Virus record (IMG/VR): IMGVR_UViG_2526164596_000013
Direction: 5' to 3' (one strand)
DNA from: a virus
Lineage: Duplodnaviria; Heunggongvirae; Uroviricota; Caudoviricetes
Length of the DNA stretch: 50,979 bases
In this document: piece by piece, positions 33,276 through 50,979 of the stretch
Layout of the letters: each line of letters opens with the position of its first letter
Numbering within the stretch: the first letter of the stretch is position 1
The notes under the pieces: model-generated
What the model was told of the DNA's origin: nothing
Seen by the model: the letters and a program-made list of their open reading frames with translations, nothing else
Database searches by the model: none
Translations under genes and position numbers: made by a program

Positions 33276-33659
33276 TTAATTAGAGTTATTAACAACGATA
33301 TCCATCTCTAACCGGATATCTAATGCCATTAACATCCCTTCAATTATGCCCTCAGCCTTCTGTAACCTTTTCCCGATATAACCATCAGAGCAGCAATGCT
33401 TACCTGCCAGTGACATGAATGTCATACCGACTACATAATAATCTACTAATAAATCGTGCAAATCGCTGTTGTTCTTTTTCAGACGGGCCATGCACCCGCA
33501 AATAATCATCGCGTCATCGTCACAACATTGCGGGCGAGATTTTACTTTTGAAGTAATTAATCCCTTAAAACCGGCGGCAATGGACGACCAGGTCACATCT
33601 TCATGATTATTTGCCGCCCACGCTCCCCAGCGTTCGAGAACCATCTGAATATCACGCAT
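33276..33659 (-). CDS. Q: late-gene antiterminator Q (QuuD-type)
   Basis: 127 aa from [24 protein letters not shown]... with Cys-rich putative zinc-binding segment ([20 protein letters not shown]); matches the DLP12 QuuD family as recalled. Confidence 0.8.
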
Positions 33660-33676
33660 CAACTTTCTCCACAAAA

Positions 33677-34696
33677 TCAGGACAGCACACCAATCGCCAG
33701 CGCGCGATCGATAAAACGAAATATCAGCTCCAGTTGGGAACCATACTTCTCTTCAAATGCCACGGTATCCGCATGTAGTTCGTCATGGTGTTTTCTGCAC
33801 AAAGGCAACACAAAAAGGTCATGCGCTTTTGTACCCATTCCACCCTGACCATGACCAATCAGGTGATGAGGATCGTCGGCTGGCTTACCACAACATGCAC
33901 ACGGCTGCGTCTTAACCCAGCGCGTGTACTTTTCATTAACCCAGCGACGACGTTTTGGGCGTAACATAAAAGACTCCGGCGACTCCGGATCCACTTTCAG
34001 CGCCAGCACCTTTTTCGCTTTATCCTGGATGATGCTGGTGGCAGGAACCGAAGGCACAAGGTCACTTTCCCGGGTGACAGACGGCACAACAGGCTTCGGT
34101 AATCTCAGTGCCTTACGGGCTGCACTTTCCGGTAAGGCATCCGCCAGGTCATTACGAATCAGCCACCAGCACAGTTCCGGCATTGTCACAACGTGACTGT
34201 CATCAAAACCGAGATCCCGACGCACAACAGACAACACCCAGCGGGCACAGTTATCCGTTGCCATTGATTCCAGCCGTTCCGTGAACTGATCGCGCAGCTG
34301 GTTATCGCAGTGCCAGCACAGACGGATTGCACCCGGAGCGTGTCGCATTGTGGTCATGTTCTCGCTGTGCCTGTCGGAATGAGGCCACTGGCAGCCTTTT
34401 TCACGAAGTAACCAGCTTTCAAGACATTCCACGCCACCAGCACGACGGATCACTGCCTCATTGCGGAACACGGCCCGAACGGCAGGATCATCCGCCAGCG
34501 GTTGTGATGCCGCCGGAACGGCACCACTGGCGAAAGATGAATAACGTTCCGGCTCAGGCTCCAGCAGGACACGCCCCTGCATAAACAGGGGCATCAGCTC
34601 TGAACCGGGCCTGAACAATACAATCCCCATACGCGGGGCAATTTCAGGGGTCAGCAGTGCTCTCACGGTCACCTCAGCAAACGATATTGAATGCAT
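33677..34696 (-). CDS. DUF968-like phage protein with C-terminal Cys/His-rich (HNH-like) motif
   Basis: 339-aa ORF; C-terminus [43 protein letters not shown]; sits in the nin-equivalent position between replication genes and Q; start codon uncertain. Confidence 0.55.
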
Positions 34697-34717
34697 ACAG
34701 AGAAAAAAACTCAGTCA

Positions 34718-34921
34718 TCACGCAGTAAACTCCTTCACCAGTATTTCAAACTGGCTTACCTGTCCTTCCAGTTCCTCCACGCAATCCACCAGCTCATCCA
34801 CCGCCTTTTGTGTACGGTGTTTTGCCTGCAGCAGATCACGAAGCGCCGGAGTAAGCTGCTTGCGGAGCGTATCTTTTGCCACGCTCGTTTTTTCCATCTG
34901 TTCAGCACAACGAAGCATCTC
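34718..34921 (-). CDS. hypothetical small coiled-coil protein
   Basis: ORF 34718-34975 (TTG at 34975 overlapping dnaB stop; first ATG at 34921); fills gap between helicase and DUF968 genes. Confidence 0.35.
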   Translation of the reverse strand, partial: EMLRCAEQMEKTSVAKDTLRKQLTPALRDLLQAKHRTQKAVDELVDCVEELEGQVSQFEILVKEFTA

Positions 34922-34971
34922 CTGCGCCTGCCGACGAAGTTGTTCCGGTGAAACAGTGGTTGTTCTGTTGT

Positions 34972-36372
34972 TCAAAATAAACGCTCCGTTTTACTGCCCG
35001 ACATGCGGTTATTGCTGTATCTGCGCGGATTGCCCGGCGTCATGGGTGTGGAAAGAACCCGGGCACTCTCCTGGTCCACAGGCAGAAAATGTCCGTTATG
35101 AAAACGCCGGTAAATGGTCCCGAGCGTGCCATTACGCTGTTTCGTGATGTTGATTTCTGCTATGCCTCTGGCCTGAGTTTCCGGGTTGTATACCTCATCC
35201 CTGTAAAGCATCAGAATGATGTCGGCATCCGCCTCGATTTCCCCGGAGTTTTTCAGGTCCGAGTTCATTGGGCGTTTATTGGGTCTGGATTCCACGCCGC
35301 GGGAGAGCTGGCTCAGAGCAATCAGCGGAAAACCGCCGGATTTTGCCAGGCTTTTAAGTCCCTTTGAGATTTCCCCCACCGCAAGGTCGTGACGCCCCGT
35401 GCTGCGGGTTTTAATCAGGCCGAGGTAATCGACCACCACCAGCGCCGTTTCCGGGTGTTTCATCCGGTGGTGCTTCGTGGTTGCACATATCTCATCAATG
35501 GTCAGGTTTGCCTGGTCCACCATCCAGATATTACGCCCCGTCATTCGTCCCACGCCCTGCGAGAAACGCGCCCAGTCTTCATCTTCAAAACGGGCAACAG
35601 ACTTAAGACGGGATACCGGCATTCCACCGGCAGCAGACACCATACGTTCACCAATCTGGATGTTCGCCATCTCCATGGTGAACAGAAGCACGCCATGCCC
35701 CTGCTCAGTCACCTTGTCGATGATGTCCAGCGCAAGTTCGGTTTTCCCCATCGAAGGACGGGCGGCAATGAATACCAGGTCTCCGGGCTCCATACCGCCC
35801 GTTTTTGCGTCCAGTTCATCAATACCGGTCATCAGCGCCCTGGATTTCTCCAGTCCCTGATTGCGGCATTCAACACGGTCGACCACTTCCGGAAGGACAT
35901 CATCAATGTGAACCGGCTGAATGACGCCCTTTCCGGTCGACAGTGAGGCCATCATGTTCTGCGCATCCTTCAGGGCATCCTCGGCTGCTTCACAGGTATA
36001 CGCATCACGTAAATTCTGTAATGCTTCAGTCAGTGTTTTTTCTGCATCGCGCAGTGCGGCATTGCGCCGTAACGCTGCGACATAGTGCTCCAGTGAAGAC
36101 TTCACCCAGGTTTTGCGTCCGGTGTCGGTAATCACCGGGGCAAGTTCCGGCATCTCATTGCACAGCAGTACGGGGTCAATGACGCCGGATATGCGAGCCT
36201 GTCTGCAAATCCCCGCGTAAATATCCCGGTACTGACGCACAAAAAATACATCCGCCGGAAGTGTGGCCAGAATATCCATCACTTCCGGATCGGCCCCACG
36301 CAGAAAAAACGCACCGATGACAGCGCCTTCCAGGTCATCGTTACGCCATGCCGGGGTGTTCTGGCTGGTCAT
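34972..36372 (-). CDS. replicative DNA helicase (DnaB family)
   Basis: 466-aa ORF; Walker A GARPSMGKTELAL, DnaB-like C-terminal RecA fold motifs (IALSQLSRGVESR..., EIEADADIILMLYRDEVYN). Confidence 0.85.
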   Translation of the reverse strand: MTSQNTPAWRNDDLEGAVIGAFFLRGADPEVMDILATLPADVFFVRQYRDIYAGICRQARISGVIDPVLLCNEMPELAPVITDTGRKTWVKSSLEHYVAALRRNAALRDAEKTLTEALQNLRDAYTCEAAEDALKDAQNMMASLSTGKGVIQPVHIDDVLPEVVDRVECRNQGLEKSRALMTGIDELDAKTGGMEPGDLVFIAARPSMGKTELALDIIDKVTEQGHGVLLFTMEMANIQIGERMVSAAGGMPVSRLKSVARFEDEDWARFSQGVGRMTGRNIWMVDQANLTIDEICATTKHHRMKHPETALVVVDYLGLIKTRSTGRHDLAVGEISKGLKSLAKSGGFPLIALSQLSRGVESRPNKRPMNSDLKNSGEIEADADIILMLYRDEVYNPETQARGIAEINITKQRNGTLGTIYRRFHNGHFLPVDQESARVLSTPMTPGNPRRYSNNRMSGSKTERLF

Positions 36373-40989: not shown

Positions 40990-41070
40990 CACCAGATACT
41001 TTGTTATCCAACGATGTTAACCACAGGAATCCAAAGTATCAAGAAATTCTGTTACTTTAGTATCAACAAC
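40990..41070. promoter_or_regulatory. OR-like operator/promoter region between cro-like gene and cI
   Basis: inverted half-sites GATACTTTG (40995-41003) and CAAAGTATC (41032-41040), plus related TACTTTAGTATC (41054-41065). Confidence 0.5.
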
Positions 41071-41088
41071 CATGAGAGGAGAAGAAAA

Positions 41089-41745
41089 ATGAAGTCTTTA
41101 GGTGAACGTCTCATCAACGCACGGCAAAAAGCTGGGTTAACACAAGATGCGTTGGCTAAAAAAGCTGGGATCACCAGAGTTGCAATCAGTAAAGCCGAGC
41201 AAGGCCTTACAAAAAGTTTCAACGGTGACACCCTTTTTAAAGTTGCAGCTGCACTGCGGTGTTCACCGCAGTGGCTTCAGAACGGAGATGAAAAAGATAA
41301 GCATTGGGAAAATAATGTTAAGAGCTGCCCACAGAGAGACACAGCACACTCTTACCCTGTAATTAACTGGGTTCAGGCAGGATTATTCGCAACTTCTGGT
41401 GATGACTACAACATGTATGATCAGGATAATTGGAGGCATTCTGTAAAATACGCTGGTGAGAGGGGGTTCTGGCTGGAAGTGCACGGAGACTCAATGACTT
41501 CGCCCGTAGGAATAACATTTCCTGAAGGAATGTCGATCCTTGTCAACCCAGATAAAGAAGTTTTTTCAGGGTGTTACGTCATCGCCAGAAAAAAATCCAC
41601 CAATGAAGCAACATTCAAAAAATATATTTCTGACATGGGAAAGGCGTTTCTAAAGCCCCTTAATCCACAATATCCAATCATAGAAATGGACAATGATTGC
41701 GAAATAGTAGGTGTTGTGGTTGATGCCAGGTGGGATATTTTCTGA
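41089..41745 (+). CDS. cI: prophage repressor cI (N-terminal HTH, C-terminal S24 LexA-like autopeptidase)
   Basis: ATG 41089 with GGAGAAG SD; HTH LTQDALAKKAGITRVAISKAEQG; C-terminal GDSM Ser and downstream Lys (ATFKK) of S24 peptidases. Confidence 0.85.
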   Translation: MKSLGERLINARQKAGLTQDALAKKAGITRVAISKAEQGLTKSFNGDTLFKVAAALRCSPQWLQNGDEKDKHWENNVKSCPQRDTAHSYPVINWVQAGLFATSGDDYNMYDQDNWRHSVKYAGERGFWLEVHGDSMTSPVGITFPEGMSILVNPDKEVFSGCYVIARKKSTNEATFKKYISDMGKAFLKPLNPQYPIIEMDNDCEIVGVVVDARWDIF

Positions 41746-43620: not shown

Positions 43621-43856
43621 ATATCATGCAATACGATGAATTCCAGGCTGAAGCAACAGCCAATGGTATACGAACTGGCAGTATGACGATTGATTATCAC
43701 GACGCCATACGTCGTCTGGATGCCGGAGAATTCGATACTCCTAATGTGCGAGGTTTACGTATCCTTCAGTGTCTGGCGCAAGCCGACGAAGCAGGATTAC
43801 TGGGTAAACTTCCGGTTGAGATGAAGGTTGCTCAGTGGCGATGGTTGGATTTGCCC

Positions 43857-44762
43857 CTATATTTCCAGACATCTGTTATCACTTAACCCATTACAAGCCC
43901 GCTGCCGCAGATATTCCCGTGGCGAGCGATAACCCAGCGCACTATGCGGATGCCATTCGTTATAATGCTCGAACGCCTCTGCAAGGTTCTTTGCTGCCGT
44001 TAACCCGTCTGGTTTGGGCATGATACTGATGTAGTCACGCTTTATCGTTTTCACGAAGCTCTCTGCTATTCCGTTACTCTCCGGACTCCGCACCGCCGTG
44101 TTCTTCGGTTCAAGTCCCAACATCCGGGCGAACTGGCGTGTTTCATTAGCCCGGTAGCATGAACCATTATCCGTCAGCCACTCCACTGGAGACGACGGAA
44201 GATCGTTGCCGAAGCGGCGTTCCACCGCTCCCAGCATGACGTCCTGTACTGTTTCACTGTTGAAGCCGCCGGTAGTCACCGCCCAGTGCAGTGCCTCACG
44301 ATCACAGCAGTCCAGCGCGAACGTGACACGCAGTCTCTCTCCGTTATCACAGCAGAACTCGAACCCGTCAGAGCACCATCGCTGATTGCTTTCTTTCACG
44401 GCCACTCTGCCTGTATGTGCCCGTTTCGATGGCGGTACAGCAGGTTTTCGCTCAAGCAACAGCGCATTCTGGCGCATGATCCGGTAAACACGTTTGGCAT
44501 TGATCGCAGGCATACCATCAAGTTCTGCCTGTCTGCGAAGCAGCGCCCATACCCGACGATAACCATACGTGGGCAGCTCTCCGATAACATGGTGTATACG
44601 GAGAAGCACATCCGTATCATCAGTGTGACGACTGCGGCGGCTATCCATCCAGTCATCGGTTCGTCTGAGAATGACGTGCAACTGCGCACGCGACACCCGG
44701 AGACAACGGCTGACTAAGCTTACTCCCCATCCCCGGGCAATAAGGGCGCGTGCGCTATCCAC
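43857..44762 (-). CDS. insD: IS2 transposase OrfB (DDE integrase core)
   Basis: 301-aa ORF matching IS2 InsD as recalled. Confidence 0.85.
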
Positions 44763-45085
44763 TTTTTTGCCCGTCCATATTCAACGGCTTCTTTGAGGAG
44801 TTCATTTTCCATCGTTTTCTTGCCGAGCAGGCGCTGGAGTTCTTTAATCTGCTTCATGGCGGCAACAAGTTCAGAGGCAGGAACAACCTGTTCTCCGGCG
44901 GCGACAGCGGTAAGACTTCCTTCCTGGTATTGCTTACGCCAGAGAAATAACTGGCTGGCTGCTACACCATGTTGCCGGGCAACGAGAGAGACCGTCATCC
45001 CCGGTTCAAAGCTCTGCTGAACAATTGCGATCTTTTCCTGTGTGGTACGCCGTCTGCGTTTCTCCGGCCCTAAGACATCAATCAT
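44720..45085 (-). CDS. insC: IS2 OrfA (HTH transposase subunit)
   Basis: [56 protein letters not shown]... matches IS2 InsC as recalled; overlaps orfB as expected for a -1 frameshift fusion. Confidence 0.85.
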
Positions 45086-45553
45086 CTGTTCTCCAATGAC
45101 TAGTCTAAAAACTAGTATTAAGACTATCACTTATTTAAGTGATACTGGTTGTCTGGAGATTCAGGGGGCCAGTCTAATGGTTGTATGTGACGACATTCAT
45201 CAACGAAGAAGAAGACAAGAACGGCACAATTGATATCTTGAATGAACACGGAACAACTGAACACGCCGTGGTATATAACGGGATGTATGGGTTTATGACG
45301 ATATATCCCGGCCCCATTCGATTTGCCTTACAACAGTATATTGAATGGAATTTAATTCAAAAATACGGCGAAGCTGAAGGAATGGGAAGAGCGCTGTTTC
45401 TTTATCAGAAAATGCTCACTACTTCCCCTGATAAAGGTTTCATTCTTTCAGATATGGGTCGAGAAGGGCTTGAAATCCTTCTGGATGAAATTATTAACGA
45501 AATGAATACTCATGGCATGCAATCCGAAACAGATATTAAGTAAAAGGGACCAC

Positions 45554-45775
45554 ATGACCGTTATCGAGCATATCCAGGAAAATCCAGATTGCAGTAGAGA
45601 AGATATATCCCTCGCACTTGGAAGAAGCGCAACTTCTATCAGTAATGAATTATCACGGTTATTGTGGAATGGGTTAATAGTACGAACTGGAGAAAAAAAC
45701 AAAATGATTCTGTACTGCGTAAACAATCTGCCGTTTGGATACAGCAATCCCCTAAGTGTTATGTTCAACCAGTGA
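45554..45775 (+). CDS. hypothetical small winged-helix-like protein
   Basis: ATG 45554 with AAGGGA SD just after the stop of the IS2-disrupted ORF; fold assignment is only an impression. Confidence 0.4.
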   Translation: MTVIEHIQENPDCSREDISLALGRSATSISNELSRLLWNGLIVRTGEKNKMILYCVNNLPFGYSNPLSVMFNQ

Positions 45776-45818
45776 TAGTGATGTTCCGACAGGAGAGAGC
45801 AGAGAAAGGGGAATCAGC

Positions 45819-46478
45819 ATGAAATTTTCCAAATTTTCTGAGTTGGTGAATCGTATTTTGTCCAACAACCACAGCCATCGTCGCGATATGGATGTAACGA
45901 TCGTTGTTCATTCGCCTGGCAGCATTGGTTCAACACCCTCAGTTGAAGTTCAGTCAATTCACGCTGGTTTTGATTGGGATTCCGGGAAAGTGCTGATTTT
46001 CCCAGCACAGCCACTGACCACTCTAACACCAGAACAGATTACTGATATTACTGATAGTGTGCGCAAAGGTCAGTCCTGGCACGCATATCAGGAATACAAG
46101 AAGCATAAAGAGCAGTTGGAAAAATTATCGATTGAACTTGATGCCGCAAAACAGCGCATTGCAGAGCTGGAGGGTAATTTCACGGCGCTGGCAGCGGAGA
46201 ATGCGGGGCTAAAGGCGATATGTGATGACCGTCGCAGGTTCATCATGAATGGGGTGCAGATGGGTTATATCAAGGTGCCAGCAGCGGAAACAGATCCAGA
46301 CCTTGAGACAATTCGCATTGCTATATCACCACAAAAGCCCATTCCAGCCACCGATGCTTTCCTGGCTGAAGTACGGGCGCAGGGCGTGGAGATGTTTGCG
46401 GAGTGTGCATACACGCTTGAACATCATGATCACGCAGTAGCCTTCGCCGCTGAGCTTCGCAAAGGAGGCAACCAGTGA
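45819..46478 (+). CDS. Ead/Ea22-like protein, paralog 1
   Basis: ATG 45819 with AAAGGGGA SD; coiled-coil segment ...ALAAENAGLKA... and C-terminus ...PATDAFLAEVRAQGVE...AAELRKGGNQ shared with the next gene. Confidence 0.5.
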   Translation: MKFSKFSELVNRILSNNHSHRRDMDVTIVVHSPGSIGSTPSVEVQSIHAGFDWDSGKVLIFPAQPLTTLTPEQITDITDSVRKGQSWHAYQEYKKHKEQLEKLSIELDAAKQRIAELEGNFTALAAENAGLKAICDDRRRFIMNGVQMGYIKVPAAETDPDLETIRIAISPQKPIPATDAFLAEVRAQGVEMFAECAYTLEHHDHAVAFAAELRKGGNQ

Positions 46479-47161
46479 GCAAGATTGACTATCAAGAACT
46501 GCGCGAGGCGGCGGAACAGGCAACGCAAGATGAATGGGTAGCATATATTTTGCCGGGTCATAACGGCATTTATCCTGCGCGCACGTCTGAGGGTAGGCAT
46601 TGCGGATACTTTATTGACTGGCCTGGCGTCTGTCAGGGGCGGGAGAGCATCAACATGAGCATCAGAACCTACGCAGTGAATTGCAATGACGCATGGCTAA
46701 ACACCGAAGGTGATGACATCTCCGGCTCATACGTTAAGTACAAAGACCATCAGGAAGTGGTTGCCGCTCTTGAGGCCAAGTGCGCGGCGCTGGCAGCGGA
46801 GAATGCGGGAATAAAGTCTGCAATTCCAGAATCACGGGATATTGAAGATGACAATGACAATATGGATGACGTATCTCTCGCGGAAGACTTCGGGTTCAAT
46901 CATGCAATAGAACGGATGAGGAGACAGATACCTGAAACGCCAACCACTGATGCTTTCCTGGCTGAAGTCCGGGCGCAGGGGGTGGATGCTGCTATAGAAG
47001 CTGCAAAAAATCTGGTGGCCCAAGAATATGAGTATAAGGATTTCAAAGCGGCGCAGAGTGATTGCTGTATGTACCCTGGTTCAGACCTGGTAGGGAAGGT
47101 TGAAATGACTGAGTGGTTAGTTGACTTTGCTGCCCAGCTTCGCAAAGGAGGCAACCAGTGA
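46475..47161 (+). CDS. Ead/Ea22-like protein, paralog 2
   Basis: GTG start overlapping previous stop (GTGA); N-terminus MSKIDYQELREAAEQA; repeats ALAAENAGIK and TTDAFLAEVRAQGVD...AAQLRKGGNQ. Confidence 0.5.
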   Translation: MSKIDYQELREAAEQATQDEWVAYILPGHNGIYPARTSEGRHCGYFIDWPGVCQGRESINMSIRTYAVNCNDAWLNTEGDDISGSYVKYKDHQEVVAALEAKCAALAAENAGIKSAIPESRDIEDDNDNMDDVSLAEDFGFNHAIERMRRQIPETPTTDAFLAEVRAQGVDAAIEAAKNLVAQEYEYKDFKAAQSDCCMYPGSDLVGKVEMTEWLVDFAAQLRKGGNQ

Positions 47162-47643
47162 GCGAAATTAATTACCAGGCACTGCGTGAGGTGGCGGAAC
47201 GTGCAATTCCAGCAATGGAACGCCTGTTAATGTTGCCAGCTGATGATGACTTGTTAAGTGAACAGGAACTTAAAGATTACGGTGTGGATATTGATGCGCT
47301 CAACGCCTTCAAATTTCTGACCGGACCAGAAACCGTGCTGGCACTGCTGGATGAACGGGAAAGAAACCTGCAATACATCAAAAGCCGCGATCAGGAGAAC
47401 GAGGATATTGCGCTAACGGTAGGGAAGCTGCGCGTTGAGCTTGAAGCAGAAAAACAGCGGGCAAAAGTTCTATTTATGGAAAATGCTCGGCTTAAGTCAG
47501 GCATAGCCGGTCTGATACACCTCGGTATTCGATATGCAGATGTTGAGGTCATGAAAATTGCTGGAGATGCCCAGCTTTCTACCCCATGCACTGACAGCAT
47601 CATAAACAGCATTGCAACAGGCATTCGCATCAAAGGAGAGTGA
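47158..47643 (+). CDS. Ead/Ea22-like protein, paralog 3 (N-terminal module only)
   Basis: GTG start overlapping previous stop; N-terminus MSEINYQALREVAERA parallels paralog 2. Confidence 0.45.
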   Translation: MSEINYQALREVAERAIPAMERLLMLPADDDLLSEQELKDYGVDIDALNAFKFLTGPETVLALLDERERNLQYIKSRDQENEDIALTVGKLRVELEAEKQRAKVLFMENARLKSGIAGLIHLGIRYADVEVMKIAGDAQLSTPCTDSIINSIATGIRIKGE

Positions 47644-47644
47644 T

Positions 47645-48160
47645 ATGGCGTTAACACACCACGAACTCTGTCAGATTGCGTACAAGTTCCTTAAGCGCAA
47701 CGGGTTCAAGGTTTGCTTTCATGACCGCTTTGTTGCTGTAACCAGTACCGGAGAACAGCCAGATGCTATGGGATTCAGAAATTCAGCATCATGCCTGATA
47801 GAGGCGAAGTGTTCTCGTGCTGACTTGTTGGCAGATAGAAAAAAGCGTTTCCGTAAAAATCCCTCACTTGGCATGGGCGACTGGCGATTCTTTATTAGTG
47901 AGCCGGAAATTATTTCAGTTGAGGATTTACCTCCCGGCTGGGGATTACTTCACGTTGTTAACGGAAGAGTACGGAAAGTACATGGATGGCCCAGGGGTAA
48001 TTGCTGTTGGGGTAATCCTGACGATAAGCCATTTACTGGGAATAAGCAGGTTGAATGCGATTACATGTTATCTGCATTAAGGCGCATGGAGTTGAGAGGG
48101 CACCTTAATGAAATATATGACGGTGTGATTGTTAATAAGAAAGAAGGAAACGCGGCATGA
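47645..48160 (+). CDS. hypothetical protein with PD-(D/E)xK nuclease-like motif
   Basis: ATG 47645 with AAAGGAGAG SD; product has ...TGEQPDAMGF...(12 aa)...CLIEAKCS (D ... E-x-K spacing typical of restriction-endonuclease-fold nucleases) and a Cys-rich segment GNCCWGNPDDKPF. Confidence 0.45.
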   Translation: MALTHHELCQIAYKFLKRNGFKVCFHDRFVAVTSTGEQPDAMGFRNSASCLIEAKCSRADLLADRKKRFRKNPSLGMGDWRFFISEPEIISVEDLPPGWGLLHVVNGRVRKVHGWPRGNCCWGNPDDKPFTGNKQVECDYMLSALRRMELRGHLNEIYDGVIVNKKEGNAA

Positions 48161-48888
48161 TCACTATTACCAAAGGGCGACTGCTGACAATCAAGCAGTG
48201 GCGCGAAACATACGGACCGGGTAGCAACGTTGTGCTTCCAGCAGAAGAAGCGGAAGAGCTGGCACGGATTGCGCTGGCATCACTGGCAGCAGAGCCGGTG
48301 GCAAAGATTATAGCTCATTACCCATTAGGAGTTGACGCAGGCAAACAAAAATTCGTACAGGCCATTAGAGAGCTTCCTGACTTTGGCGGATATCTATTTG
48401 CCGCCCCTCCAGCGCCGATAGTGCCGGAAGAAATGTATTGGCAGGATGCGCCAGTTGAAGGCAGCAGCAAAGCGGCTGCATACGCTACAGGCTGGAACGA
48501 TTGCCGCGAAGCCATGCTTCAGTCCGGAAACTTTCGGGAAAATAAAGATTCGTCAACCAATAATTTTCGGAAAATCCCGGAAGCGTCAACCAGCTCTCCG
48601 GTAACTCCGGCTCTTCTGCCTGGTGGTTTCACCATTGAGGAGGCGAAGGAATTACATGAAGACCTGGTACGCAGCCACATAAGCAAGGCCTTAAGTGGCG
48701 AAAAGATGAAAAAGAAAGATCGCGATGCTGATTTGCGCTGGATTCATGGCGTTATAGTTCAGGCAGCGTGGTTTGTAAAAGCATCACTGGAGCAGAATGC
48801 ACTATCGGGCAACTCTCCGGTAACTCCGGATGGTTGGATAAGCTGTAGTGAGCGAATGCCGGACGACAGGCAGGAGGTGAATCAATGA
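48157..48888 (+). CDS. hypothetical protein (243 aa) ending in a WIS..ER.P motif reminiscent of DUF551
   Basis: ATGA-coupled to the upstream gene; contains an internal direct repeat (ctctccggtaactccgg at about 48590 and 48810, SPVTP twice). Confidence 0.45.
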   Translation: MITITKGRLLTIKQWRETYGPGSNVVLPAEEAEELARIALASLAAEPVAKIIAHYPLGVDAGKQKFVQAIRELPDFGGYLFAAPPAPIVPEEMYWQDAPVEGSSKAAAYATGWNDCREAMLQSGNFRENKDSSTNNFRKIPEASTSSPVTPALLPGGFTIEEAKELHEDLVRSHISKALSGEKMKKKDRDADLRWIHGVIVQAAWFVKASLEQNALSGNSPVTPDGWISCSERMPDDRQEVNQ

Positions 48889-48968
48889 GCTGGCCTGATG
48901 CAATCGTAACTCTGGGGGTGGTATTCGCAGCAGCGTTTGTTGTGTTCTCGATTTGTCGATGGGGATAA
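48885..48968 (+). CDS. hypothetical 27-aa hydrophobic peptide
   Basis: ATG 48885 overlaps upstream stop (ATGA), AGGAGG 9 nt upstream; product MSWPDAIVTLGVVFAAAFVVFSICRWG. Confidence 0.3.
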   Translation: MSWPDAIVTLGVVFAAAFVVFSICRWG

Positions 48969-48972
48969 CCAC

Positions 48973-49215
48973 ATGTTCGCTTTGATTCAACGCGGTCAGA
49001 TATACACGGACAGAGCCGGATACCCCGTGGTGATTACTCGCATCACTGAGCACTCAGTGTTCTTTCGACGGATGGACGGACGATCCGGGCGGGTACGCAT
49101 TGGTGAGTTAAACTGCCTGTTCGAACATATTGACCACCAGGAGTACCGCAAAATTCTCGCGGACACTGAGCAGGAAAAGCACCTGAAAAAATTACGAGCC
49201 ATAAAAAGGAAGTAA
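48973..49215 (+). CDS. hypothetical protein (80 aa)
   Basis: ATG 48973 within ORF 48937-49215; basic C-terminus. Confidence 0.4.
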   Translation: MFALIQRGQIYTDRAGYPVVITRITEHSVFFRRMDGRSGRVRIGELNCLFEHIDHQEYRKILADTEQEKHLKKLRAIKRK

Positions 49216-49373: not shown

Positions 49374-49610
49374 ATGGGCAATGTGATTCAACTGGCTCCC
49401 AATGAATGGGTTTGTGAAAGCGTTCTTATCGCAATTACCGGGCTCAAACCAGGCACAATTCTTCGGGCCCGGAAAGAATGCTGGATGGTTGGAAGAGAGT
49501 ATATTCACGTATCACCAGACGGTAATCCAAAGCCTTCCAGTGAATGTATGTATAACAGAAAAGCAATAGATGCCTGGGTCGCCTCAATGAAAAACAAACA
49601 ACCCAGGTGA
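49374..49610 (+). CDS. xis: excisionase-like protein (Xis)
   Basis: 78-aa ORF immediately upstream of int with GAGG SD; small basic protein in the canonical xis position. Confidence 0.6.
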   Translation: MGNVIQLAPNEWVCESVLIAITGLKPGTILRARKECWMVGREYIHVSPDGNPKPSSECMYNRKAIDAWVASMKNKQPR

Positions 49611-49665: not shown

Positions 49666-50979
49666 ATGGATAAAGTCAAATATCCAACAGGCGTCGAAAA
49701 CCACGGCGGCACATTACGCATCTGGTTTAATTTTAAAGGTAAACGTGTCAGGGAAAATCTTGGTGTCCCTGACACTGCCAAGAACAGGAAGATCGCCGGG
49801 GAACTGCGGACATCAGTATGTTTTGCCATCCGCACAGGAAGCTTTGATTATGCTGCACAGTTCCCTGACTCCCCCAACCTTCAGGCTTTTGGGGTAAGTA
49901 AAAAAGAAATTACGGTGAAGGAACTTGAAGAAAAGTGGCTGGATCTGAAACGAATGGAAATCTCTGCAAATGCATTCAATCGCTATGAATCCGTTGCAAG
50001 AACGATGGTTCCGAAAATTGGAGGCAGTAGACTGGTATCATCGGTAACCAAAGAGGAATTGCTGTATATCAGGAAAGATTTGCTTACCGGGTATCAGAAT
50101 TCAACGAAAAACAAAGCAGCAGCAAAAGGACGGAGCGTCGTTACTGTAAATTATTACATGACGACAATCGCTGGAATGTTTCAGTTTGCTGCAGATCACG
50201 GTTACTTAGAAGCAAATCCCTTCCAGGGAATTAAGCCTCTTAAAAGAGCCAGGGCAGAGCCAGATCCGCTAACTCGTGACGAATTTATTCGCCTGATAGA
50301 TGCTTGCCGACATCAGCAGACGAAAAACCTGTGGTCATTGGCTGTGTACACAGGAATGCGTCACGGTGAACTGGTCTCCCTGGCCTGGGAAGATATCGAT
50401 CTGAAGGCAGGAACAATTACCATCAGGCGCAATTATACGAAACTTGGTGAGTTCACTCTACCGAAAACTGAAGCAAGCACAAACAGGGTTGTGCACCTTA
50501 TCCAGCCCGCTATCAGTGTCCTGAAAAATCAGGCTGAAATGACAAGACTGGGTAAGCAGTACAACATCAAGGTGCAACTACGTGAATATGGACGTTCAGT
50601 GAACCATGAATGTACTTTCGTGTTTAACCCTCAAGTGGTTAGAAAAAGCGAACAGGTAGGTTTTGTCTACAAAGTCGATTCTGTAGGTGACTCATGGGAA
50701 ACAGCCATTAAGCGTGCAGGGATCAGGCATCGAAAGGCATACCAGTCACGACACACTTATGCGTGCTGGTCATTATCTGCCGGAGCAAACCCAAGCTTCA
50801 TTGCCAGCCAGATGGGCCATGCAAGTGCCCAGATGGTATTCAATGTATACGGAGCATGGATGACTGACAGCAATGCAGAACAGATCGCAATGCTGAATCA
50901 GAAGCTGACAGATTATGTCCCAATGATGCCCCATAGTCACCAAAGTGACACCAGAGGCTTATTAAAATCAGTAAGTTAA
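49666..50979 (+). CDS. int: tyrosine integrase (phage integrase family)
   Basis: 437-aa ORF with GGAGG SD; C-terminal catalytic residues in ...RHTYACWSLSAGANPSFIASQMGHASAQMVFNVYGAWM...; stop at the last bases of the window. Confidence 0.9.
   Translation: MDKVKYPTGVENHGGTLRIWFNFKGKRVRENLGVPDTAKNRKIAGELRTSVCFAIRTGSFDYAAQFPDSPNLQAFGVSKKEITVKELEEKWLDLKRMEISANAFNRYESVARTMVPKIGGSRLVSSVTKEELLYIRKDLLTGYQNSTKNKAAAKGRSVVTVNYYMTTIAGMFQFAADHGYLEANPFQGIKPLKRARAEPDPLTRDEFIRLIDACRHQQTKNLWSLAVYTGMRHGELVSLAWEDIDLKAGTITIRRNYTKLGEFTLPKTEASTNRVVHLIQPAISVLKNQAEMTRLGKQYNIKVQLREYGRSVNHECTFVFNPQVVRKSEQVGFVYKVDSVGDSWETAIKRAGIRHRKAYQSRHTYACWSLSAGANPSFIASQMGHASAQMVFNVYGAWMTDSNAEQIAMLNQKLTDYVPMMPHSHQSDTRGLLKSVS

What the first reader, a model, noticed from the sequence alone, without database searches (positions are those of the whole stretch)
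47645..48968. PD-(D/E)xK-motif protein followed by coupled ORFs in the early-left operon
The 171-aa protein carries D (PDAMGF) and E-x-K (IEAK) at the spacing typical of restriction-endonuclease-fold nucleases, plus a Cys-rich segment. It is ATGA-coupled to a 243-aa protein with an internal repeat and a DUF551-like C-terminal motif, then a 27-aa hydrophobic peptide with a strong SD. No lambda exo/bet/gam-like recombination genes are recognisable in this operon, so this nuclease may substitute for them or act as an anti-defence or defence nuclease.
Basis: partly seen in the sequence, partly recalled or inferred. Interest (0 to 1): 0.55.

Follow-up and report, generated by a model that had tools for sequence, protein, structure and literature searches.

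The report
Phage MmcB/Hjc-like nuclease gene
This gene of an E. coli lambda-like prophage encodes a small, unannotated DNA-cutting enzyme of the restriction-endonuclease fold, related to the bacterial repair nuclease MmcB; it is a common optional phage gene and not a replacement for the phage's missing recombination genes.

Summary
Window 47645-48160 encodes an intact 171-aa protein with D40 and E53-x-K55. Its stop overlaps (ATGA) the start of a 243-aa ORF, whose stop overlaps a 27-aa hydrophobic ORF.

The nuclease reading is supported.
- D40, E53 and K55 are invariant or nearly so across a family of more than 3,000 sequence clusters.
- A confident AlphaFold model has the alpha-beta-beta-beta-alpha-beta core.
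- Profile searches support distant homology to MmcB.
- The protein fails the Pfam thresholds of MmcB-like and Hjc, so it belongs to an unnamed sister family.

The "substitute for Red" idea is not supported. The window does lack exo/bet/gam. Near-identical genes, however, sit downstream of gam-bet-exo in PhiR5_1 and VT1-Sakai. Relatives also co-occur with NinG, lie in the nin region of other phages, and occur in virulent Ackermannviridae. No defence-system model matches and no partner gene is conserved.

The 243-aa protein is a mosaic EaA/DUF551-type protein that has lost its DUF551 core. The 27-aa ORF looks like a real, conserved, unannotated membrane peptide.

Verdict: an ordinary, widespread accessory nuclease whose function has not been studied.

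The parts
47645..48160 (+). Gene for a 171-aa (19.5 kDa, pI 9.0) PD-(D/E)xK nuclease-fold protein of an unnamed family related to MmcB and Hjc. Active-site codons: D40 47762-47764, E53 47801-47803, K55 47807-47809. Other conserved residues: H5, E37, S57, D60, D64, K67, R70, G78, R81, W99, G100, E137, R146.
48157..48888 (+). Gene for a 243-aa mosaic EaA/DUF551-type protein. The start overlaps the nuclease stop (ATGA). The DUF551 domain is reduced to its first 16 positions by an internal deletion. Function unknown.
   Evidence: Pfam DUF551 on residues 226-241 only. PHROG modules. Separate modules found in different phages. Full 298-aa version with a complete DUF551 domain in phage P8983, with no nuclease gene upstream. 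Stx1_14040 comparison. Conserved 44-nt junction at 48820-48866 shared with P22 eaA, HK022 and HK620.
48885..48968 (+). 27-aa hydrophobic small ORF (MSWPDAIVTLGVVFAAAFVVFSICRWG). Probably a single-pass membrane peptide. Start overlaps the upstream stop (ATGA) and follows an AGGAGGTG Shine-Dalgarno sequence. Unannotated in public records.
   Evidence: A 28-aa allele (MMNWPEAFTAVGVAIAVAFILYSLFRWG) sits at the same place, directly upstream of the DUF4222 gene, in Stx1_14040, VT1-Sakai, phi467 and JLK-2012. The alleles differ at 28 of 84 nt. Only this frame stays open, and the termini and hydrophobic core (Kyte-Doolittle about 2.3) are kept.
47158..47643 (+). Context: last of three tandem Ea22-like genes (45756-46478, 46475-47161, 47158-47643). 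It ends 1 nt before the nuclease start and its 3' end carries the nuclease's Shine-Dalgarno sequence.
   Evidence: Pfam Ead_Ea22, E 4e-31 and 1e-27. Repeated junction sequences between the paralogues.
48973..49215 (+). Context: DUF4222 gene (80 aa) that always follows the small hydrophobic ORF. After it come a 48-aa ORF, the excisionase (49374-49610) and the integrase (49666-50979).
   Evidence: Pfam DUF4222 E 8e-14. DUF1233 excisionase. Linkage to the small ORF.

Best explanation
Window 47645-48160 encodes a small, basic, metal-dependent DNA endonuclease of the PD-(D/E)xK fold. It belongs to a large unnamed phage and prophage family that is a distant sister of the MmcB-like repair nucleases (PF06319, structure 3DNX) and of archaeal Hjc.

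Shown:
- The ORF is intact.
- The fold core is predicted with high confidence.
- The catalytic D40/E53/K55 set and the MmcB-type continuation E-x-K-x-S-R-x-D-F/L-x-x-D-x-x-K are conserved.
- The gene sits in the leftward early operon, between the Ea22-like genes and xis-int, with no promoter or terminator signal above chance.

Inferred:
- It is made early after infection or induction and acts alone.
- It cuts damaged or branched DNA (cross-linked, stalled-fork or junction-like structures) on replicating phage DNA. This would help a genome whose induction is itself triggered by DNA damage.
- It is an optional accessory function. It moves between the nin and exo-xis regions of lambdoid phages and is lost by frameshift in some prophages.

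The two downstream ORFs are neighbours coupled for translation, not functional partners: a mosaic EaA/DUF551-type protein with its DUF551 core deleted, and a conserved 27-aa membrane peptide linked to the DUF4222 gene.
For: Fold and active site:
- AF2 model with pLDDT 88.9 and pTM 0.83. D40 is at the start of strand 2; E53 and K55 are at the end of strand 3.
- D40 is invariant; E53, K55, E37 and H5 are at least 58 of 60 among homologues 33-56% identical.

Relationship to MmcB and Hjc:
- 3DNX is the DUF1052/PF06319 structure (PMC3424549).
- The family profile hits 3dnx at E 1.9e-4, aligning D, ExK and SRxDFxxD.
- hhalign against a bona fide S. meliloti MmcB (PF06319, 265 bits) gives 86% probability and E 5e-6 over 81 columns.
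- BFVD Foldseek hits phage proteins named MmcB-like at E 1e-7 to 1e-3.
- Weak PHROG match to 'DNA repair protein'.
- Sub-threshold Hjc and MmcB-like Pfam hits in 11 and 6 of 60 relatives.
- MmcB is an SOS-induced PD-(D/E)XK endonuclease that protects Caulobacter from mitomycin C and cisplatin (PMC9578287).

DNA-metabolism context:
- In the nin region next to NinB, NinE, NinG, Dam or DUF1367 in Morganella, Pectobacterium, Rahnella, Microbulbifer and Pseudohongiella prophages.
- Next to DNA primase in Ackermannviridae.
- Among replication and recombination genes in Vibrio phage X29.
- Of 34 classifiable IMG/VR loci, 20 are in the nin region and 13 in the pL region.

Acts alone and is optional:
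- No conserved neighbour.
- Frameshifted in VT1-Sakai.
- Present in 928 of 5,426 complete E. coli genomes.
Against: - No biochemical or genetic data exist for any member of this family. Substrate and role are therefore inferred only from distant homology and gene neighbourhood.
- The protein reaches no Pfam or NCBIfam threshold.
- Foldseek against the PDB gave no significant hit and did not list 3dnx.
- The biochemical activity of MmcB itself is not established in the papers I could read.
- The helix-1 acidic residue typical of Hjc (E7 here) is E or D in only about 77% of relatives.
- An IS3-family element inserted upstream in the same operon (43854-45167) may reduce expression in this particular prophage.
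Confidence: 0.6

Rival explanations
1. It is a true Holliday-junction resolvase or debranching enzyme, a functional analogue of lambda Rap (NinG), RusA or T7 endonuclease I. It would be the only such enzyme of this prophage, clearing branches from concatemers before packaging.
For: - Hjc-like N-terminal pattern with nearly identical spacing: E7...D40...E53-x-K55 here, against E12...D42...E55-x-K57 in Hjc (the Hjc residue numbers are from memory).
- Sub-threshold Pfam Hjc hits in 11 of 60 relatives. The Vibrio phage X29 homologue scores 20.4 bits against a cut-off of 21.1.
- The family usually sits in the nin region, where phage resolvases lie.
- This window has no NinG, NinB or RusA.
Against: - It co-occurs with NinG in 14 IMG/VR loci and in the Morganella and Pectobacterium prophages, and with RusA in X29 and Lys8385Vzw. 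It is therefore not an alternative to them.
- E7 is not strictly conserved.
Confidence: 0.2
2. It is a defence or anti-defence nuclease. Either it destroys superinfecting DNA for the lysogen, or it destroys a host immune nucleic acid or host DNA for the phage.
For: - It lies in the variable exo-xis accessory region, where phages keep host-interaction genes.
- PD-(D/E)xK effector domains of Can2, Card1 and Cap4 are among the distant structural matches.
- Its patchy distribution and mobility between genome regions resemble those of counter-defence genes.
Against: - No PADLOC model matches it or its neighbours.
- It has no sensor domain and no conserved partner gene.
- It is embedded, with overlapping stops and starts, in the early lytic operon. 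No promoter-like site lies on its strand, so a lysogen would not be expected to express it.
- Relatives lie in the replication modules of virulent phages.
Confidence: 0.12
3. One reading: it replaces the missing lambda Red (exo/bet/gam) recombination system of this prophage.
For: The window has no exo, bet, gam, ninB, ninG or rusA homologue. The IS3-family insertion upstream is a simple insertion into a phrog_1515 gene, so the Red genes were not lost through it.
Against: - The identical protein in PhiR5_1, and the 97%-identical but frameshifted copy in VT1-Sakai, lie in the same operon as kil-gam-bet-exo.
- exo and/or bet accompany family members in 5 IMG/VR loci.
- The fold is an endonuclease core with no annealase and no lambda-Exo-like toroid. 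The closest relatives are MmcB and Hjc, not lambda Exo, RecE or RecB.
Confidence: 0.04
4. It is a decaying or non-functional remnant, as PGAP's 'frameshifted' label suggests.
For: PGAP marks the identical DNA as a frameshifted pseudogene. O157:H7 alleles really are frameshifted inside the active site.
Against: The window ORF is full length (171 aa), as in the 1,363-member cluster P0004. It keeps every invariant residue of the family. PhiR5_1 and Lys8385Vzw, both deposited as complete phage genomes, carry the identical protein.
Confidence: 0.04

Closest known systems
MmcB-like DNA repair proteins (Pfam PF06319, formerly DUF1052; structure 3DNX, SPO1766; Caulobacter MmcB)
   Same: - Same active-site block, D ... 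E-x-K-x-S-R-x-D-F-x-x-D-x-K, followed by R-x-F and a G-L turn.
- Similar size (about 150-175 aa), single domain, no partner.
- Phage relatives are already labelled 'MmcB-like' in UniProt and PHROG.
   Different: - Fails the PF06319 model (no hit at E < 0.1 for the query; best relative 2.9e-4).
- Has its own conserved features: N-terminal T-H-x-E-L helix, G-E-x-P-D, G-M-G-D-W-R-F, P-x-G-W-G-L-L, and a C-terminal helix with E137, R146 and R147.
- Phage-borne in Gammaproteobacteria rather than chromosomal and SOS-regulated in Alphaproteobacteria (PMC3424549).
Archaeal Holliday junction resolvase Hjc (Pfam PF01870)
   Same: PD-(D/E)xK core, similar size, similar spacing of the acidic and lysine residues, and an 'IE-x-K-S-R-x-D' strand. 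Weak profile matches are seen.
Phage structure-specific nucleases Rap (NinG), RusA and T7 endonuclease I
   Same: Early-expressed small accessory nucleases of phage replication and recombination modules. The family's usual position is the nin region.
   Different: No sequence or family relationship to NinG (an HNH-like protein; from memory) or RusA (its own fold; from memory). Often present together with them.
EaA / DUF551 (PF04448) and Ea22-like mosaic proteins of the lambdoid exo-xis region (comparison for the 243-aa ORF)
   Same: Same modular build. It has an N-terminal 'ELARIALASLEAEPVA' module, an S-P-V-T/I-P-D-G-W linker and the start of a DUF551 domain.
   Different: The DUF551 core (about 55 residues) is deleted here and in PhiR5_1.

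Membership tests
PD-(D/E)xK nuclease superfamily | alpha-beta-beta-beta-alpha-beta core fold | tested here: met
   [not shown]
PD-(D/E)xK nuclease superfamily | Conserved D on strand 2 and (D/E)-x-K on strand 3 | tested here: met
   D40 is 60 of 60; E53 and K55 are 59 of 60 in homologues 33-56% identical. Their positions match strands 2 and 3 of the model.
PD-(D/E)xK nuclease superfamily | Metal-dependent phosphodiester cleavage | not testable with these tools
   Needs enzyme assays.
MmcB-like (Pfam PF06319) | Score at or above the Pfam gathering threshold (22 bits) | tested here: not met
   No PF06319 hit for the query at E < 0.1. Only 6 of 60 relatives hit, best E 2.9e-4. A real MmcB scores 265 bits.
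MmcB-like (Pfam PF06319) | Structural and profile similarity to the family's structure 3DNX and to a bona fide member | tested here: met
   [not shown]
MmcB-like (Pfam PF06319) | Role in tolerance of DNA cross-linking agents; SOS regulation | not testable with these tools
   Known for Caulobacter MmcB only (PMC9578287). Here the gene lies in a phage early operon.
Hjc (Pfam PF01870) | Score at or above the gathering threshold (21.1 bits) | tested here: not met
   No hit for the query. Relatives score at most 20.4 bits. 11 of 60 have sub-threshold hits.
Hjc (Pfam PF01870) | Dimer that cleaves four-way junctions symmetrically | not testable with these tools
   No multimer modelling or assay was available.
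   [not shown]
Lambda Red-type recombination module | Presence of an exonuclease/annealase pair, or mutually exclusive distribution with it | tested here: not met
   The gene co-occurs with gam-bet-exo in PhiR5_1 and VT1-Sakai and with exo and/or bet in 5 IMG/VR loci.
DUF551 (Pfam PF04448), for the 243-aa ORF | A complete DUF551 domain | tested here: not met
   The score (23.5 bits) formally passes the 22-bit cut-off, but only profile positions 1-16 of 68 are present. Full-length relatives carry about 55 more residues.

The most novel reading that the evidence does not exclude
This unnamed family has at least 3,282 clusters at 50% identity. It occurs in 642 phage records, from Stx phages and P1-like plasmids to virulent Ackermannviridae. 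It could be a distinct, so far unrecognised class of early phage endonuclease with one common job. That job might be incising cross-linked or otherwise damaged phage DNA after SOS-triggered induction, so that Stx-phage yield after mitomycin C would depend on it. Alternatively, it might destroy a DNA-based host immune intermediate.
Probability: 0.15. Interest if true: 0.5.

Novelty: new member of a known kind. Interest (0 to 1): 0.25.

Why it matters
The result gives a testable identity to a gene that is labelled 'hypothetical', or even 'frameshifted pseudogene', in about one in six complete E. coli genomes and in most Stx-converting phages. The identity is a likely active MmcB/Hjc-like endonuclease.

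If this enzyme helps phage DNA survive the very damage that induces the prophage, it would bear on Shiga-toxin phage yield after mitomycin C or antibiotic treatment.

More modestly, the family deserves a Pfam/NCBIfam model, and the 27-aa membrane peptide deserves annotation. The analysis also removes the suggestion that this nuclease is a novel replacement for the Red recombination system.

Tried and rejected
Searches that gave nothing:
- Pfam, NCBIfam and PADLOC scans of the 171-aa protein.
- Single-sequence search of PDB sequences: only noise.
- The afdb50 fold library was unavailable.
- tblastn with a 47-aa 3DNX fragment against phages found nothing usable. The plasmid collection then supplied a real MmcB for comparison.

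Context and fusions:
- I first assumed the window was collinear with NZ_CP077477.1. That was wrong. That record carries an IS903B, whereas the window carries an IS3-family element elsewhere.
- Longer family members were checked for informative domain fusions. Only TniB-like, DUF551 and dATP/dGTP pyrophosphohydrolase fusions appeared, one protein each. These may be gene-calling fusions with neighbours.
- I looked for a conserved partner gene among 80 IMG/VR loci and found none. The commonest neighbours are DUF551-type proteins (27 loci, on either side) and Ea22-like proteins (19 loci), which are simply the usual occupants of this region.

Literature: searches on MmcB, DUF1052, the exo-xis region and Hjc in lambdoid phages found no study of this protein.

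Ideas considered and rejected:
- A metal cluster formed by the cysteines (not conserved).
- Loss of the Red genes through the IS insertion. The IS simply splits a phrog_1515 gene.
Full report
**Where we are.** The window is a complete lambdoid prophage of E. coli. The finding lies at the distal end of the leftward early operon, on the + strand.
- Gene order: repressor (41014-41745), several small genes, three tandem Ea22-like genes (45756-47643), the 171-aa ORF, the 243-aa ORF, the 27-aa ORF, a DUF4222 gene, a 48-aa ORF, the excisionase and the integrase (49666-50979).
- The 1,324 bases of the finding are 100% identical to part of a prophage in E. coli O111:H21 strain 15A. The window is not that prophage. 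In the region upstream of the Ea22-like genes that record carries an IS903B, whereas the window carries an IS3-family element at 43854-45167.

**Checking the observation.**
- The 171-aa ORF starts at ATG 47645, one base after the stop of the last Ea22-like gene, and ends at 48160.
- PDAMGF is at residues 39-44 and IEAK at residues 52-55.
- The next two ORFs each begin with an ATG that overlaps the preceding TGA.
- The 27-aa ORF has AGGAGGTG upstream.
- No promoter-like site lies on the + strand, and terminator-like sites are no more frequent than in shuffled sequence. The genes therefore read as one transcription unit.
- The internal repeat of the 243-aa protein is a short 11-aa tandem unit plus a repeated 20-nt linker.
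- The DUF551 match covers only the first 16 of 68 profile positions.

**What the 171-aa protein is.**
- *Family.* Curated libraries do not recognise it (Pfam, NCBIfam, PADLOC). PHROGs places it in two families of unknown function and gives a weak match to a 'DNA repair protein' family. A word-indexed search found 308 homologues, all 'hypothetical'. A profile search of 1.84 billion cluster representatives found 3,282 at E <= 0.001.
- *Conservation.* In an alignment of 59 relatives that are 33-56% identical to the query, D40, D60, G78 and R81 are invariant. H5, E37, E53, K55, S57, D64, K67, R70, W99, G100, E137 and R146 are nearly so. None of the cysteines is conserved outside the enterobacterial subgroup. 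The 'Cys-rich segment' is therefore not a functional motif.
- *Fold.* An AlphaFold2 model built on 61 sequences is confident (pLDDT 88.9, pTM 0.83). It shows helix 5-18, strands 23-26, 41-45 and 48-54, helix 58-65 and strand 80-85. This is the PD-(D/E)xK core, with D40 at the start of strand 2 and E53/K55 at the end of strand 3.
- *Structural matches.*
  - 3DNX is the structure of DUF1052/PF06319, now called MmcB-like (PMC3424549).
  - Foldseek against viral models finds phage proteins named MmcB-like.
- *Sequence support.*
  - The family profile hits the 3dnx sequence at E 1.9e-4, aligning D, E-x-K and S-R-x-D-F-x-x-D.
  - hhalign against a genuine S. meliloti MmcB (PF06319, 265 bits) gives 86% probability and E 5e-6.
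- *Caveats.* Foldseek against the PDB gave nothing significant and did not list 3dnx. The query and its relatives stay below the Pfam thresholds of both MmcB-like and Hjc.
- *Conclusion.* I file it as a PD-(D/E)xK nuclease of an unnamed family, a distant sister of MmcB-like. It is not a member of PF06319.

**Where the family lives.**
- *Phages.* tblastn finds it in 642 phage records. These include Stx1 and Stx2 phages, P7, Klebsiella and Vibrio temperate phages, and virulent Ackermannviridae. In one Ackermannviridae phage a 45%-identical core lies beside a homing endonuclease and the DNA primase.
- *E. coli.* The gene is in 928 of 5,426 complete E. coli genomes at >= 95% identity, always labelled 'hypothetical'. 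There are 248 copies on plasmids.
- *Other Gammaproteobacteria.* In Morganella, Pectobacterium, Rahnella, Microbulbifer and Pseudohongiella prophages it sits in the nin region, between the replication genes and Q. Its neighbours there are NinB, NinE, NinF, NinG, Dam, DUF1367, DUF968 or YbcO.
- *IMG/VR loci.* Of 80 loci, 34 could be placed with a marker panel: 20 in the nin region, 13 in the pL region upstream of int, and 1 ambiguous.
- *Neighbours.* No neighbour is conserved. The commonest are DUF551-type proteins (27 loci, on either side) and Ea22-like proteins (19 loci).

- The window indeed has no exo, bet, gam, ninB, ninG or rusA. The IS element merely splits a phrog_1515 gene, so nothing suggests the Red genes were lost through it.
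- However, the identical 171-aa protein in PhiR5_1 lies downstream of kil-gam-bet-exo, and VT1-Sakai has the same arrangement.
- exo and/or bet accompany the gene in 5 IMG/VR loci, and NinG in 14. The gene is therefore an addition to recombination systems, not a replacement for them.
- In VT1-Sakai and other O157:H7 strains a 2-nt deletion breaks the frame just before the IEAK motif. The gene is therefore dispensable for maintaining the prophage.
- Arguments against a defence role: no PADLOC hit, no sensor domain or partner gene, embedding in the early lytic operon, and presence in virulent phages. An anti-defence role cannot be excluded.

**How it most likely works.**
- *Shown:* an intact PD-(D/E)xK active site in an MmcB-like scaffold, a basic protein (pI 9.0), and early-operon placement.
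- *From established knowledge:* PD-(D/E)xK enzymes with this triad are Mg2+-dependent phosphodiesterases. Caulobacter MmcB is an SOS-induced endonuclease needed for resistance to mitomycin C and cisplatin (PMC9578287).
- *Inferred:* the phage enzyme acts alone on damaged or branched DNA during early replication, as an optional aid. This is plausible for phages whose induction is caused by DNA damage.
- *Main rival:* I rate a dedicated Holliday-junction resolvase role lower because the gene co-occurs with NinG and RusA.
- No paper in the library reports any experiment on this protein or on phage MmcB-like proteins.

**The downstream ORFs.**
- *243-aa protein.* It is a mosaic. Residues 1-152, 85-151, 150-214 and 206-241 each turn up separately in different phages, including P22 EaA.
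- *Full-length form.* Phage P8983 has the 298-aa version with a complete DUF551 domain and no nuclease gene upstream.
- *Deletion.* In the window and in PhiR5_1 about 55 residues of the DUF551 core are missing.
- *Junction.* The 44 nt around the start of the DUF551 domain (48820-48866) are shared by hundreds of phages and mark a mosaic junction.
- *27-aa ORF.* A 28-aa allele sits at the same position in four other phages, directly upstream of the DUF4222 gene whatever gene precedes it.
- *Signs that it is real.* The two alleles differ at a third of their nucleotides. They keep the frame, the length, the W-P-D/E-A start, the R-W-G end and a hydrophobic core. It is probably a real small membrane protein that no held record annotates.

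**Verdict.** The Red-substitute reading is not supported.

The object is a common accessory gene with no experimental study. It is a new member of a known kind (MmcB/Hjc-like PD-(D/E)xK nucleases) that lacks a curated family model.

Interest is modest. It would rise if the enzyme proved important for phage yield after DNA-damaging induction.

Noticed in passing
window 43854-45167: An IS3-family insertion sequence: 33-nt imperfect terminal inverted repeats, with an rve-type transposase ORF at 43857-44762 on the minus strand. It sits inside a phrog_1515 gene of the leftward early operon. The N-terminal part of that gene is at 43626-43886 and the C-terminal part at 45181-45543. It lies upstream of the finding and could be polar on it.
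   Followed up: partly
window 48885-48968; also L004 3246-3332, L013 8223-8309, L020 1510-1596, L021 1722-1808: A conserved, unannotated 27/28-aa hydrophobic ORF, always immediately upstream of the DUF4222 gene and preceded by a GGAGGTG-type Shine-Dalgarno sequence (GGGGGTG in JLK-2012). It is likely a real small membrane protein.
   Followed up: partly
L001 12001-12179 (NZ_CP077477.1 99007-99185): PGAP annotates DNA identical to the intact 171-aa gene as a 179-bp 'frameshifted' pseudogene and leaves the remaining 333 bp unannotated. This looks like an artefact of a short reference protein (phrog_16308 is a 58-position profile matching residues 1-55).
   Followed up: partly
L013 6971-7514 (VT1-Sakai, AP000400.1): In the Stx1 prophage of O157:H7 Sakai the nuclease gene is frameshifted just before the IEAK motif and is unannotated. 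Many O157:H7 genomes share this 514-nt allele. The 111-aa C-terminal fragment is itself a large protein cluster (P0052, 645 members).
   Followed up: yes
window 45756-47643: Three tandem Ea22-like paralogues whose junctions and internal blocks repeat at 80-91% identity (88-nt, 56-nt and 47-nt repeats spaced about 600-680 nt apart). This is a substrate for unequal recombination.
   Followed up: no
window 48820-48866: A 44-47-nt block coding S-P-V-T-P-D-G-W-I-S-C-S-E-R-M-P (linker plus the start of DUF551). It is 91-100% identical in hundreds of phages, including P22 eaA, HK022 and HK620. Sequence diverges abruptly on both sides, which marks a mosaic recombination junction.
   Followed up: partly
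NC_050152.1 / AF503408.1 (phage P7) 89016-89983; E. coli plasmids of 60-100 kb: The nuclease gene (97% identical) and part of the 243-aa gene also occur on P1/P7-type phage-plasmids, under the features annotated upf89.0 and upf89.5. E. coli plasmids carry 248 copies of the nuclease gene.
   Followed up: no
L057-L070 (IMG/VR contigs of 87-107 kb): A group of large viral contigs carries 58-62%-identical family members. Their neighbours are small Cys-rich proteins of unknown function, and none of my lambdoid marker proteins matched. The phage type was not identified.
   Followed up: no
window 33276-36372 (minus strand): The nin region of this prophage is minimal: DnaB-type helicase, an 85-aa ORF, a 339-aa DUF968/HNH endonuclease and the QuuD-type antiterminator. 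It has no NinB, NinG or RusA.
   Followed up: partly
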